Shown in pieces: positions 24,001 through 27,000 of a stretch of DNA of 46,614 nt. The stretch comes from a virus (lineage: Duplodnaviria > Heunggongvirae > Uroviricota > Caudoviricetes): the IMG/VR virus record IMGVR_UViG_2713896798_000017; one strand, 5' to 3'. Each line of letters begins with the position of its first letter. The first letter of the stretch is position 1. The position numbers are program-made.

Positions 24001-27000
24001 TCCTGAAAACTGGTAAAACCTAAGTGAATAAAAGTAAAAACCCCGTTTGTTGGCAGCAAGCGGGGTTTTGTGTTTTCTGACCTTGAGTAAGGCAAGGGAG
24101 AAATTATGGGTAGGGAGGTACTTTCCCTGTGAGGAAGTATAAAAGATTCTTTCTGAGGTTGTCCATTATGAAAGGCATTGAAGTGGAGACGCCAGCCAGT
24201 CTGGATTTAACAAGAGCGGCAGCTTTTGCCATTCGTATTGTGGCCATTGCTGTTCTGGTCTGGGCAATCCGTTGGTGGTGATATGAACCGTGTTCTGTGC
24301 GTGGTTATCATTGTCCTGCTGGTGGCCTGTGGTGCGCTTAGTCTGGGGCTGAATCATTACCGTGATCACGCCATCATCTACAAAGAGCAGCGCGATAAAA
24401 AAGCCAGTGAGCTGGAGCTGGCGAACGCGACAATTACTGATATGCAGATACGCCAGCGTGATGTCGCTGCACTTGATGCCAGATACTCGAGGGAATTAGC
24501 CGATGCGAGAGCTGAAAATGAAACTCTGCGTGCTGATGTTGCCGCTGGTCGTAAGCGCCTGCGGATCAACGCCACCTGCTCCGGTACCGTGCGTGAAGCC
24601 ACCGGCACCTCCGGCGTGGATAATGCAACCGGCCCCCGACTGGCAGACACCGCTGAACGGGATTATTTCATCCTCAGAGAACGGCTGATGGCAATGCAGA
24701 AGCAACTGGAAGGAGCACAGGAATATATCCGTACCCAGTGTATACCGTGATGTTTTGTTATGAAGGTGTTACTGGTAACGTTAAGGTAATTTAACAAAGA
24801 GTCAGTTCCGGACTTTATAGTGTGCTCAGTTCATGGCCAAAAACGATTTCTGTGATAAATATTTTGAATATTATTTACAGGTAAATGGAGTGGGGCACAT
24901 GGATAGAAATATTACAATAGAGAATGAAGTATATGCCCGTATTGTATGGGCAGAGAAGGCAAAAACACGGTAATTCCGTGTGTTGCCATGATACCTGATT
25001 GGCAGAATAGTTGTTTGGTTTTGAGTATATAGTCAGCGTTTTTTGTTCAGTAATTGCTCCCTCAAAAAATAATAAAATAAGGTGATTATTTTTGTTTATT
25101 ATTTAGTTTTTTTTGTGTGTTGTTTTATTGTTTTTGCGTGGTTTGTTTTTTATTGTTATTTCATTAAGGGAAGGTAAATTCAGGATGGCAGTCTGTAGAT
25201 AATCGGAGGTCACTTATGCTACATGATCACGTGGCAGAATGTCTGGAGAAAAAAGGACTGTACCGGAGAGCAGCTGAACGATGGGCAAAAGTGATGGTAC
25301 AGCTAAGTGATGACCAGAAAAGAAAAGTGGCGGCACAGAAACGAGCAGAGTGTTTGCGTAAGGCGCGCCGGACTCCGGTTTCACCGGTGAACCTGACCGA
25401 AATAAAACAAGCGGTCAACAGACTACATTCTGAGTTGGGAATGGGATTTGAAGAGCGGCGGGTATTCCGACGATATAAAGGGACAGGAGAACAGAATACG
25501 TCCGGAAACGCGCGGTCAAAAAAATGCTAAAAAATATCTGAGAGCGTTATTGCCTGTTACCATAAGAAAAAGCGACTTTAGTGGTCGCTTTTTGTGTCAT
25601 ATATAAGTCGTTTAAGTAAACCTGTCTGAACAGGTGCTCTGGTCGTGTTTGTCTTTGTTGGGTACAAATTGAGAATATTTTTCATTAATTAATCTTCTTC
25701 TGCAGGCTTCAATAACCCACGCTGAAAAATTACCTGAACCTTTCAGGTCAAGAGCGATGTTAATTTGTTCAATTATCTGGTTTGGAAATCGGATGTTGCG
25801 GGTTGTTGTTCTGCGGGTTCTGTTCTTTGATGACATAATGTTGCCCCGTATTCAGTGTTGCTGATTTGTATTATCTGAAGTTGCTTTTACGCTAATTTGA
25901 TGCAGATCAATTAATACGATACCTGCGTAATAATTGATTATTTCTCGTGGTTTGATGGCGTACACACATGTCGTGATAAACCTCATGTAGATGATAATTA
26001 TTATCATTTTCGTGGGTCCTTTCCGGCGATCCGACAGGTTACGGGGCGGCGACCTCGCGGGTTTTCGCTATTTATGAAAATTTTCCGGGATCCATGTCCG
26101 GTTTCTCTTCAAGTTAACTATATGAAAAATATAAAAACAGGTCTTCTGTGAACCGGACATGAACAAAAAACAGACATGTAAACCGGACATGACCGGTTTT
26201 GTTGTGATTGTGAGGTGAGAGTTTTTGCGAGGTGAGGAGTGGCTACGCAGACTGAAGTTGCCAGGCATTTAAGTCTGACCGATCGCCAGCTTCGCAGATT
26301 GCAGAAATTGCCGGGTGCCCCGATATCGAATAAGCGAGGGCAACTGGATCTGGATGCCTGGCGCGATTTTTACATATCGTATCTGAGGAGAAGTAAAAAC
26401 GATGTGCCTGATGGCGATAGCGAAGACGACTATGAGGAGAAATTGCTTATTGCCAGATGGGAACTGACAGCAGAACAGGCTGTTACACAGCAGTTAAAAA
26501 ATGAGGTGTCAAAAGGAAAACTTATTGACACCGGGTTCTGTATTTTTGCCCTCAGTAAGCTGGCAATGGCGTTATCCAGTACGCTTGATTCCATCCCTTT
26601 ATCCATGCAGCGACAGTTTCCTGATTTAACACCGCGCCATCTTGACCATCTGAAAACCCTTATTGCTAAGGGGGCAAATCAGTGTGCGCGGGCAGGGGAT
26701 AAATTACCGGATTTACTCGATGAATATATCAGAGCAACAACTGAATAATATGATGGCTGCCGTTTCGGTTGCGCTGCAGCCTCTGGTCAGGGTTGTACCA
26801 ATGACGGCAGTTGAATGGGCTGATCAAAATTATTATCTGCCTAAAGAATCTTCATATGGTGAGGGAGAATGGAAAACGCTGCCATTCCAGATCGCCATTA
26901 TGAACTGTATGGGTAACGACCAGGTTCGCACGGTTAACCTGATTAAATCTGCCCGTGTTGGCTATACAAAGATGTTGCTGGGGGTGGTCGGGTATTTTAT

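What the first reader, a model, noticed from the sequence alone, without database searches (positions are those of the whole stretch)
26005..26195. Lambda-matching cosN joined to a distinct set of cosB repeats
About 75 nt around the cohesive end match lambda as recalled, but the downstream terminase-binding region uses AACCGGACATG repeats (one inverted, two direct, with an AT-rich IHF-like spacer). The Nu1 N-terminus also diverges from lambda while the C-terminal half and gpA are lambda-like. This fits coupled divergence of the small-terminase DNA-binding domain with its cosB sites on a shared nicking site.
Basis: partly seen in the sequence, partly recalled or inferred. Interest (0 to 1): 0.5.

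Follow-up and report, generated by a model that had tools for sequence, protein, structure and literature searches.

The report
Lambda-type cos with new terminase-binding boxes
This is the DNA-packaging start site of a lambda-like E. coli prophage: it has lambda's exact cutting site, but its terminase-docking repeats and the small terminase's DNA-binding domain belong to a different, common and apparently unstudied class, so it adds a member to the known lambda/phage 21 pattern rather than a new mechanism.

Summary
Window 26014-26088 (cosQ, the 12-nt cohesive end GGGCGGCGACCT at 26044-26055, and the I2 spacer) matches lambda at 74 of 75 positions. The match stops abruptly at 26089.

Downstream lie three exact copies of CATGTCCGGTT:
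- 26093-26103, at the R3 position
- 26151-26161, inverted
- 26181-26191, inverted
A fourth 10/11 copy at 26188-26198 forms a near-palindrome with the third. The 11-mer occurs nowhere else in the 46.6 kb.

The adjacent small terminase (TerS, 26239-26748) is Nu1-like only from about residue 50 onward. Its N-terminus is a strongly diverged winged helix-turn-helix of the same fold.

In 13 enterobacterial relatives, the box sequence tracks recognition-helix residue 20. Arg goes with ATGTCCGGTT; Asn or Asp goes with A(T/C)TTCCGGTT. Spacing is fixed: cosQ to R3 is 83-85 nt and R3 to R2 is 55 bp. Distant Pseudomonas relatives keep the CCGGTT core.

This cosB/TerS type occurs in about 21% of complete E. 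coli genomes, as common as the phage 21 type, and in the deposited PhiR12 phage records. I found no paper describing it.

Verdict: a real, ordinary-mechanism cos site and a new member of the known packaging-specificity paradigm. It most likely arose by module exchange rather than by divergence in place.

The parts
26014..26020 (+). cosQ-like heptamer GGGTCCT (packaging-termination subsite)
   Evidence: Identical to lambda and phage 21 at the same distance from the cohesive end. It lies inside the 'R4' box annotated in the phage 21 record. It is present 83-85 nt upstream of the R3 CCGG in all 13 family loci. Loci were anchored on this motif, so the result is its presence and spacing, not its invariance.
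26044..26055 (+). cosN core: predicted 12-nt 5' cohesive end GGGCGGCGACCT
   Evidence: Identical to lambda, 21 and phi80 bp 1-12 (phi80 and N15 records annotate bp 1-12 as the sticky end). Actual nicking was not tested.
26056..26088 (+). I2 spacer between cosN and R3 (CGCGGGTTTTCGCTATTTATGAAAATTTTCCGG)
   Evidence: Identical to lambda bp 13-45. The TTATGAAAATTT core is conserved in all 13 family loci and in lambda, 21 and HK225. Identity with lambda ends at 26088.
26093..26103 (+). R3-equivalent TerS box CATGTCCGGTT (bp 50-60 from the cohesive end)
   Evidence: Exact repeat copy. It sits where lambda/21 R3 lies (bp 50-65). It is conserved in PhiR12_1 while flanks vary and covaries with TerS residue 20.
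26115..26127 (-). I1-equivalent IHF-like site (TTTCATATAGTTA on the minus strand) in a 72% A+T spacer
   Evidence: Two mismatches to WATCAANNNNTTR. It lies at bp 72-84, against bp 74-86 for the matches in lambda (2 mismatches) and 21 (1 mismatch; the phage 21 record annotates I1 at bp 72-86). Family members L020, L022 and L027 have perfect YAANNNNTTGATW at the aligned position. Weak on its own.
26151..26161 (-). R2-equivalent TerS box (AACCGGACATG on the plus strand, inverted relative to R3)
   Evidence: Exact copy. CCGG-to-CCGG distance from R3 is 55 bp in all 13 family loci. My own count on the lambda sequence gives 56 bp between the lambda R3 and R2 cores.
26181..26191 (-). R1-equivalent box, same orientation as R2
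   Evidence: Exact copy. It is present 30 bp after R2 in window, PhiR12 and the Enterobacter locus, 42 bp after R2 in the Klebsiella locus, and absent from 9 of 13 loci. It is probably accessory, as in lambda.
26188..26198 (+). Fourth box CATGACCGGTT (10/11), R3 orientation, overlapping R1 to form a near-palindrome
   Evidence: (I7, I9). Conserved in PhiR12_1. Function inferred only.
26239..26748 (+). Small terminase TerS (169 aa, GTG start): N-terminal winged HTH domain (about residues 1-55) plus Nu1-like oligomerisation and TerL-binding part
26720..28648 (+). Large terminase gpA (TerL) homologue, overlapping the TerS 3' end
   Evidence: 66% identical to lambda A over 639 residues. Pfam GpA_ATPase and GpA_nuclease both match.

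Best explanation
This is the cos packaging site of a lambdoid E. coli prophage, built on the lambda plan but with terminase-docking boxes of a different sequence class.

Proposed mechanism, inferred by analogy with lambda and 21:
- IHF bends the A+T-rich I1 spacer, so R3 and the inverted R2, 55 bp apart, are presented to one TerS dimer.
- The R1/R1' near-palindrome gives accessory binding.
- The Nu1-like C-terminal part of TerS holds gpA over cosN, 37 bp upstream of R3.
- gpA nicks there to give 12-nt 5' ends GGGCGGCGACCT.
- cosQ serves termination.

Shown here: the sequence anatomy, the homology and fold of the proteins, and the covariation of box and recognition helix across relatives.

Inferred: binding, bending, nicking, and a packaging specificity distinct from lambda and 21. 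The box has G at the position equivalent to bp 56 and C at the position equivalent to bp 59 (as in lambda). Those are the two base pairs reported as critical for lambda/21 discrimination.

Origin: the TerS domain plus R-box module belongs to an old lineage (proteins beginning MATQxEVAxHL, boxes with a CCGGTT core). It is joined to a lambda-identical cosQ-cosN-I2 block at a junction between I2 and R3.
For: Anatomy. There is a 75-nt block with 1 mismatch to lambda, ending at 26088. Three exact copies and one 10/11 copy of the 11-mer occur only here. R3 starts at bp 50, which is where R3 starts in lambda and 21.

Conservation. PhiR12_1 keeps all four boxes while the sequence between them changes.

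Covariation in 13 enterobacterial loci. Residue 20 = Arg goes with ATGTCCGGTT in 6 loci (14 boxes with exactly that sequence, plus the ATGACCGGTT copy in window and PhiR12). Residue 20 = Asn or Asp goes with A(T/C)TTCCGGTT in 7 loci (15 boxes), not counting the offset overlapping copy in L031. There are no exceptions. Spacing is constant. In a neighbour-joining tree of the domain, the Asn-type P0014 is the nearest neighbour of the Arg-type window protein. This suggests more than one switch.

Distant relatives. TerS homologues at 34-48% identity (Pseudomonas phage LPPA33, L012, L015, L037) keep CCGGTT at the R3 position; it is a tandem TTCCGGTTCCGGTT in LPPA33, L012 and L037.

Proteins. Searches show a Nu1-type TerS with a MerR-like winged HTH and a lambda-like gpA.

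Context. The head, tail and lysis modules are complete. The same cosB plus TerS occurs in 1152 of 5426 complete E. coli genomes and in the deposited phage genomes PhiR12_1, _2, _2_star, _4 and _5, whose records name E. coli K-12 MG1655 or E. coli C as host.

A satellite island in E. coli strain 135 carries the full box set without any TerS gene. That fits a signal read in trans.

Literature. The lambda and 21 model, the importance of bp 56 and 59, and the critical cosN-R3 spacing are from PMC4669245 and PMC9026076.
Against: There is no experimental evidence here: virion ends, TerS binding and IHF dependence are all untested.

The IHF match is weak (2 mismatches; 23% of random 56-nt windows match as well).

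Aligned by sequence, the box core sits 3 bp closer to cosN than in lambda or 21. In lambda, changes of more than 1-2 bp in that spacing are harmful. So either the geometry differs or the sequence-based equivalence is wrong.

Residue 36 (Leu/Met versus Tyr) covaries as perfectly as residue 20, so the contacting residue is not identified.

Published genetics assigns bp 56 to lambda residue 24, not residue 21.

A distinct specificity is not guaranteed, because N15 terminase packages lambda DNA despite different boxes.

Strain 135, which carries the satellite, has no resident prophage of this TerS type at megablast sensitivity (one place in that record).
Confidence: 0.85

Rival explanations
1. Divergence in place. 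The cosB boxes and the TerS DNA-binding domain drifted together from a lambda-like ancestor while cosN stayed fixed, with no recombination. This is the literal form of the first reader's idea.
For: The overall architecture (R3-I1-R2 spacing, TerS start at bp 196 against 191 in lambda) is the same as in lambda. The boxes keep partial similarity to the lambda and 21 boxes. The domain is homologous and colinear.
Against: Identity with lambda drops from 45/45 to unalignable within a few bases at 26088/26089. TerS and gpA are only 46% and 66% identical at protein level, while cosQ-cosN-I2 is about 99% identical at DNA level. The same TerS/box lineage is combined with quite different cohesive-end sequences in other hosts. 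A satellite family exchanges cosB modules at the same I2/R3 boundary.
Confidence: 0.1
2. Same mechanism but no separate specificity. The boxes are TerS sites, yet this terminase and lambda's or 21's cross-package each other's DNA, as with the one-way N15-to-lambda case. The 'distinct set' would then have little biological consequence.
For: [quoted passage not shown] The sister subclass box CATTTCCGG shares TTTCCG with lambda.
Against: The window's box carries G at the bp-56-equivalent position. Lambda TerS Glu24 is reported to clash with G:C at bp 56. The box lacks the G of 21 at the bp-59-equivalent position. The recognition helix RQLRRLQK differs from lambda RTIQNWQE and 21 RTIERWQS at most positions. 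The core is shifted 3 bp relative to cosN.
Confidence: 0.15
3. The repeats serve something other than terminase, for example an operator for a late-gene or prophage regulator, or a replication or partition protein, and only happen to lie beside cosN.
For: A MerR-like winged HTH fold is also typical of transcription regulators and excisionases. No binding data exist.
Against: The boxes sit at a fixed distance from cosQ and cosN in all 13 loci. They covary with the adjacent TerS helix. They reproduce the lambda R3-I1-R2 geometry. In distant relatives they persist immediately upstream of TerS. They also occur in a satellite next to cosN with no TerS and no phage regulators of that type.
Confidence: 0.03
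4. Inactive relic. The prophage is defective and this cos no longer functions.
For: Several early-region genes of the identical prophage are annotated as pseudogenes. Many E. coli lambdoid prophages are defective.
Against: Terminase, head, tail and lysis genes are intact. The same cos and TerS are 91.5% (DNA) and 99.4% (protein) identical in the deposited PhiR12 phage genomes. The boxes are exact.
Confidence: 0.04

Closest known systems
Phage lambda cos (cosQ-cosN-I2-R3-I1-R2-R1) with Nu1/gpA terminase
   Same: cosQ, the 12-nt cohesive end and I2 are identical or nearly so (74/75). R3 starts at bp 50. An I1-like A+T-rich site lies between R3 and an inverted R2. R3-R2 spacing is about 55-56 bp. 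TerS starts at bp 196 (191 in lambda). TerS overlaps gpA. gpA is 66% identical and TerS residues 73-164 are 46% identical. The DNA-binding fold is the same winged HTH.
   Different: The box is CATGTCCGGTT rather than CGTTTCC(G/T)TTCT. The core lies 3 bp nearer cosN. The exact R1 copy is in R2 orientation, and a fourth overlapping copy makes a palindrome. TerS residues 1-72 have no BLAST-detectable similarity. TerS is 12 residues shorter.
Phage 21 cosB and gp1: the classic case of identical cosQ/cosN with a different packaging specificity
   Same: The logic is the same: lambda's cosN combined with different R boxes and a different recognition helix. The boxes share CATGTC (21 R1 CATGTCGGGCCT). 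Arg is present at the helix position equivalent to 21 Arg21.
   Different: The box continues CCGGTT rather than GGNCCT. The TerS N-terminal domain is far more diverged from 21's than 21's is from lambda's (21 and lambda TerS are 52% identical overall). R1 orientation differs.
Phage N15 / Monarch cosB classes
   Same: This is another lambda-like cos with a distinct R3 and TerS helix. The distant members of the present lineage (LPPA33, L012, L037, L015) have a 'simple' cosB just upstream of TerS, as N15 does.
   Different: The window has a complex, tripartite cosB. The box sequence and TerS domain are unrelated to N15's at the sequence level. No rR2-like copy lies inside the TerS gene.
PICI cos sites with Rpp (EcCICFT073 and relatives)
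   Different: It is not a satellite protein that heterodimerises with helper TerS. The cosB has R3, I1 and R2 rather than R3 only.

Membership tests
Lambda-like cos site (sensu Feiss: 12-base 5' cohesive ends related to lambda's) | [quoted passage not shown] | tested here: met
   26044-26055 GGGCGGCGACCT, 12/12 with lambda, 21 and phi80.
Lambda-like cos site (sensu Feiss: 12-base 5' cohesive ends related to lambda's) | Conserved 7-bp cosQ upstream of cosN | tested here: met
   GGGTCCT at 26014-26020, with the same spacing as in lambda and 21.
Lambda-like cos site (sensu Feiss: 12-base 5' cohesive ends related to lambda's) | cosB with an R3 box near bp 50-65, an IHF site, and an inverted R2 | tested here: met
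   Boxes lie at bp 50-60 and bp 108-118 (inverted). The spacer is 72% A+T with an I1-position IHF-like match. The IHF site itself is only weakly supported.
Lambda-like cos site (sensu Feiss: 12-base 5' cohesive ends related to lambda's) | R1 in the same orientation as R3 (R2 opposite to both) | tested here: inconclusive
   The exact third copy (26181-26191) has R2 orientation. An overlapping 10/11 copy (26188-26198) has R3 orientation. In the Klebsiella and Enterobacter relatives, R1 is in R2 orientation only.
Lambda-like cos site (sensu Feiss: 12-base 5' cohesive ends related to lambda's) | Virion DNA actually ends in these cohesive ends | not testable with these tools
   Needs end mapping of packaged DNA. 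The PhiR12 records are permuted, with cos in mid-record.
Nu1-type small terminase (Pfam PF07471) | Pfam Phage_Nu1 match above the gathering score | tested here: met
   67.9 bits against a cut-off of 30, but only residues 49-150 match profile positions 62-163. The profile's N-terminal DNA-binding part is not matched.
Nu1-type small terminase (Pfam PF07471) | [quoted passage not shown] | tested here: met
Nu1-type small terminase (Pfam PF07471) | Gene immediately upstream of, and overlapping, a gpA-type large terminase | tested here: met
   TerS is 26239-26748 and gpA is 26720-28648.
Lambda packaging-specificity class | R boxes CGTTTCC(G/T)TTCT and recognition helix RTIQNWQE | tested here: not met
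   The boxes are CATGTCCGGTT and the helix is RQLRRLQK.
Phage 21 packaging-specificity class | R boxes C(A/G)TGTCGGNCCT and recognition helix RTIERWQS | tested here: not met
   Only CATGTC is shared. The bp-59-equivalent position is C, not G, and the helix differs.

The most novel reading that the evidence does not exclude
This could be a third major, orthogonal packaging-specificity class of E. coli lambdoid prophages. It is about as frequent as the phage 21 class and often present in several copies per genome, for example in O157:H7 and O145 strains.

Within the class, specificity may toggle between a G-box (ATGTCCGGTT) and a T-box (ATTTCCGGTT) through recognition-helix residue 20, Arg versus Asn/Asp. 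That would repeat the pairing seen in 21 (Arg21 with G56) and lambda (Asn21 with T56).

Some satellites may exploit the class by copying the helper's whole cosB instead of encoding Rpp or their own TerS.
Probability: 0.45. Interest if true: 0.5.

Novelty: new member of a known kind. Interest (0 to 1): 0.35.

Why it matters
Packaging specificity decides which co-resident prophages, satellites and cos plasmids a terminase can mobilise.

This class occurs in about one fifth of complete E. coli genomes, with a median of two copies per positive genome and up to five. Carriers include O157:H7 and O145 strains. It is therefore likely to govern cross-packaging among their many lambdoid prophages, some of which carry virulence genes.

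The natural Arg/Asn(Asp) versus G/T covariation gives a ready-made, testable recognition rule for a TerS winged helix-turn-helix. This is useful because lambda TerS binds DNA poorly in vitro, which has forced reliance on genetics.

The class would also offer an additional, probably orthogonal, cos/terminase pair for cosmid and packaging tools.

It does not change the accepted mechanism of cos recognition.

Tried and rejected
- A full-text search for 'PhiR12' found no phage paper. A search for ECOR13 plus lambda, prophage and recombination terms did not find the source of the PhiR phages either.
- A search for the 11-mer in papers gave only unrelated primers and constructs.
- Searches on cosB with prophage/O157 terms and with packaging-specificity terms found only the known Feiss, Murialdo and Penades papers.
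I therefore used exact-protein look-ups to fetch flanks.
- A sequence search of the PDB gave no meaningful hit.
- The IHF consensus match is not significant alone. I rely on position and on perfect matches in relatives.
- I considered that the 2-mismatch copy at 26168-26178 is a fifth box. I rejected this because it is not conserved in PhiR12_1.
- I looked for an N15-like accessory box inside the TerS gene and found none with 2 or fewer mismatches.
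Full report
**What the window is.** The region lies in a complete lambdoid prophage. The 761 bases around the finding are 100% identical to E. coli strain 2013C-3342. RefSeq annotation of that prophage shows the usual order: Q antiterminator, tRNAs, lysis genes, a PerC-family gene, a YlcI/YnfO-family gene, then terminase small subunit, terminase large subunit, head-tail joining protein, portal, protease, decoration protein, major capsid protein and lambda-like tail genes.

**Checking the observation.** Reading 25700-26900 and comparing with the ends of lambda J02459 gives the following:
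- The cohesive-end sequence GGGCGGCGACCT is at 26044-26055.
- Window bp 1-45 from that end (26044-26088) equal lambda bp 1-45.
- The 30 nt upstream, starting at cosQ GGGTCCT (26014), differ from lambda at one base.

Similarity of 87% continues leftward to at least 25950. At 26089 the two sequences become unalignable.

The 11-mer AACCGGACATG occurs exactly three times, at 26093-26103 (minus strand), 26151-26161 and 26181-26191. It occurs nowhere else in 46.6 kb. A one-mismatch copy at 26188-26198 (minus strand) overlaps the third copy and produces a near-palindrome. By my arithmetic, about 0.02 exact copies of a given 11-mer are expected in the whole window.

The spacer 26104-26150 is 72% A+T, against 49% overall.

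**Position relative to known cos sites.** Published work places lambda R3 at bp 50-65. It gives the subsite order R3-I1-R2-R1, with R2 inverted, and reports that the cosN-R3 distance is critical (PMC9026076; PMC4669245). The phage 21 record M81255 annotates R3, I1, R2 and R1 at bp 50-65, 72-86, 107-122 and 150-165.

In the window the boxes lie at:
- bp 50-60 (R3 position)
- bp 108-118 (inverted, R2 position)
- bp 138-148 (R2 orientation)
- bp 145-155 (R3 orientation)

The best IHF-consensus match in the spacer is at bp 72-84 on the minus strand. The matches in lambda and 21 are at bp 74-86. That match alone is not significant, since 23% of random windows do as well. However, three relatives carry a perfect YAANNNNTTGATW at the aligned place. 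TerS starts at bp 196, against 191 in lambda.

**The proteins.**
- gpA (26720-28648) is 66% identical to lambda A and has both gpA Pfam domains.
- TerS (26239-26748, GTG start, 169 aa) matches Pfam Phage_Nu1 above threshold, but only over residues 49-150.
- BLASTP against lambda Nu1 and 21 gp1 aligns only residues 73-164 (46%) and 64-166 (40%).
- A profile-profile comparison of 20 relatives against lambda, 21, phi80, HK225 and N15 TerS is colinear from residue 5. It places window residue n opposite lambda residue n+1.
- An AlphaFold model of residues 1-60 (pLDDT 82) has strand, helix 4-10, helix 15-22, a loop or wing, and helix 38-55.

The N-terminus is thus a strongly diverged member of the same winged helix-turn-helix domain, not a different fold.

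**Evidence that the boxes are the TerS sites.** In the phage collection, full-length close relatives of this TerS are found only in the PhiR12 phages (99.4%). The next are Pseudomonas phage LPPA33 (43%) and Aeromonas phages. PhiR12_1 keeps all four boxes while the sequence between them changes.

The large protein database gave full-length relatives at 60-88% identity from Klebsiella, Salmonella, Citrobacter, Enterobacter and E. coli. I fetched their flanks. In all 13 enterobacterial loci:
- a CCGGTT-core box lies with its CCGG 83-85 nt from the start of cosQ;
- an inverted copy lies exactly 55 bp further on;
- a third copy is present in only four loci.

The box sequence splits perfectly with the recognition helix. 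Six loci with Arg at residue 20 (helix RQLRRLQK) have ATGTCCGGTT in every copy, apart from the one-mismatch ATGACCGGTT copy in window and PhiR12. Seven loci with Asn or Asp at residue 20 have ATTTCCGGTT or ACTTCCGGTT. Residue 36 (Leu/Met versus Tyr) splits the same way, so the contacting residue is not resolved.

In a neighbour-joining tree of the domain built without those two columns, the Asn-type P0014 is the nearest neighbour of the Arg-type window protein. This hints at more than one switch, but support from 58 columns is weak.

Relatives at 34-48% identity (LPPA33, L012, L037, L015) keep CCGGTT at the R3 position immediately upstream of TerS, as a tandem TTCCGGTTCCGGTT in the first three. 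This is a simple cosB like that of N15.

**Relation of the boxes to known ones.**
- Lambda boxes are CGTTTCC(G/T)TTCT.
- Phage 21 boxes are CGTGTCGGTACT, CATGTCGGACCT and CATGTCGGGCCT.
- The window box CATGTCCGGTT shares CATGTC with 21.
- The sister subclass CATTTCCGGTT shares TTTCCG with lambda.

At the two base pairs reported as critical for lambda/21 discrimination (bp 56 and 59: T,C in lambda; G,G in 21), the window box has G,C when aligned by sequence. Under the hhalign register, window Arg20 lies opposite 21 Arg21, and the Asn20 subclass lies opposite lambda Asn21. The pairing of Arg with G and Asn with T therefore recurs in both lineages.

This is an inference. Published genetics links bp 56 to residue 24. 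The sequence-based equivalence also puts the core 3 bp closer to cosN than in lambda.

**Origin.** Four results point to exchange of a cosB-TerS module at the I2/R3 boundary, rather than drift in place:
- the sharp loss of identity at 26088/26089;
- near-identity of cosQ-cosN-I2 to lambda, contrasted with 46-66% protein identity for terminase;
- the pairing of this TerS/box lineage with quite different cohesive-end sequences in other loci, for example L022 and L029;
- the wide host range of the lineage.

A satellite family described below changes cosB at the same boundary.

**How common, and is it known?** I used a 489-bp probe that excludes the shared cosN. This cosB/TerS type is present in 1152 of 5426 complete E. 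coli genomes, with a median of two and up to five copies. The equivalent phage 21 probe finds 1178 genomes and the lambda probe 3918. Carriers include O157:H7 EDL933 and O145 strains.

The gene is annotated generically as 'terminase small subunit', and cos is not annotated. The literature I could search lists lambda, 434, phi80, 21, N15, Monarch and gifsy-1 as the lambda-like cos types. It contains neither the box sequence in a phage context nor a description of this class. Subscription-only papers could not be searched.

**Verdict.** The mechanism is the established lambda/21 one. What is new is the member: a frequent box/TerS class with an informative natural covariation. I file it as a new member of a known kind, of moderate interest.

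Noticed in passing
L038 3925-4125 (E. coli strain 135, NZ_CP080260 about 3784973-3785173); island at L039 7133-17886: An island of about 11 kb lies at tRNA-Pro. It encodes integrase, an HTH regulator, an Icd-like protein, a RepA helicase, SSB, PerC, ProQ/FinO, a major capsid protein and a head decoration protein. It carries a complete cos with the window-type boxes (R3 CCATGTCCGGTTTC, I1, R2 GAACCGGACATG, R1 AAACCGGACATC, plus TAACCGGAAGTG) but no TerS gene. It looks like a satellite that copies a helper's whole cosB. The same genome shows no prophage with this TerS at megablast sensitivity.
   Followed up: partly
L040 1945-2020, 2120-2662 and 2825-2885 (E. coli O145 RM9872; similar in O157:H7 and Nissle strains): The commoner variant of the same island matches only as far as the I2/R3 boundary. 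After that it has a different cosB and its own 181-aa TerS, whose N-terminus resembles N15's (…MAKSCRVSATAFDKWGV…). A second, inverted cosQ-cosN lies downstream. So two packaging strategies exist in one satellite family, exchanged at the same junction as in the window.
   Followed up: partly
window 19482-19731: There are three adjacent tRNA genes: anticodon CAT (called Met by ARAGORN, Ile by RefSeq in the identical prophage), Arg-TCG and Arg-TCT. They lie between the Q antiterminator region and a SASA-family esterase gene, upstream of the lysis genes. From my own knowledge this is the arrangement in which Stx phages carry stx. No stx is annotated here.
   Followed up: no
window 25216-25530 (+): A 104-aa ORF lies just upstream of cos. 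Its counterpart in the matching prophage is annotated as a PerC-family transcriptional regulator. The strain 135 satellite also carries a PerC-family gene.
   Followed up: no
window 26208-26219 and 26225-26236: The direct repeat TTGTGAGGTGAG / TTGCGAGGTGAG lies between the last box and the TerS GTG start. The second copy contains the likely ribosome-binding site. Both copies are identical in PhiR12_1. Their meaning is unknown.
   Followed up: no
window 26068-26268 (-): A 66-aa ORF runs antisense across cosB. An ORF in the corresponding region on the same strand is annotated as a hypothetical protein in PhiR12_1 (L001 1577-1699). It is very likely a spurious call over the cos site.
   Followed up: no
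L022 about 1300-1325; L029; alignment: Members of the same TerS/box lineage carry quite different cohesive-end sequences (for example L022 …CACCGGGGGACGGCAGACGCGC…). Meanwhile cosQ, the TTATGAAAATTT part of I2 and the box spacing stay fixed. So cosN varies independently of cosB within the lineage.
   Followed up: partly
E. coli genome searches: The lambda-type cosB/Nu1 probe hits 72% of complete E. coli genomes. The top hits are annotated nohD, so many are probably cryptic-prophage remnants rather than active phages. Prevalence figures for all three classes should be read with that in mind.
   Followed up: no
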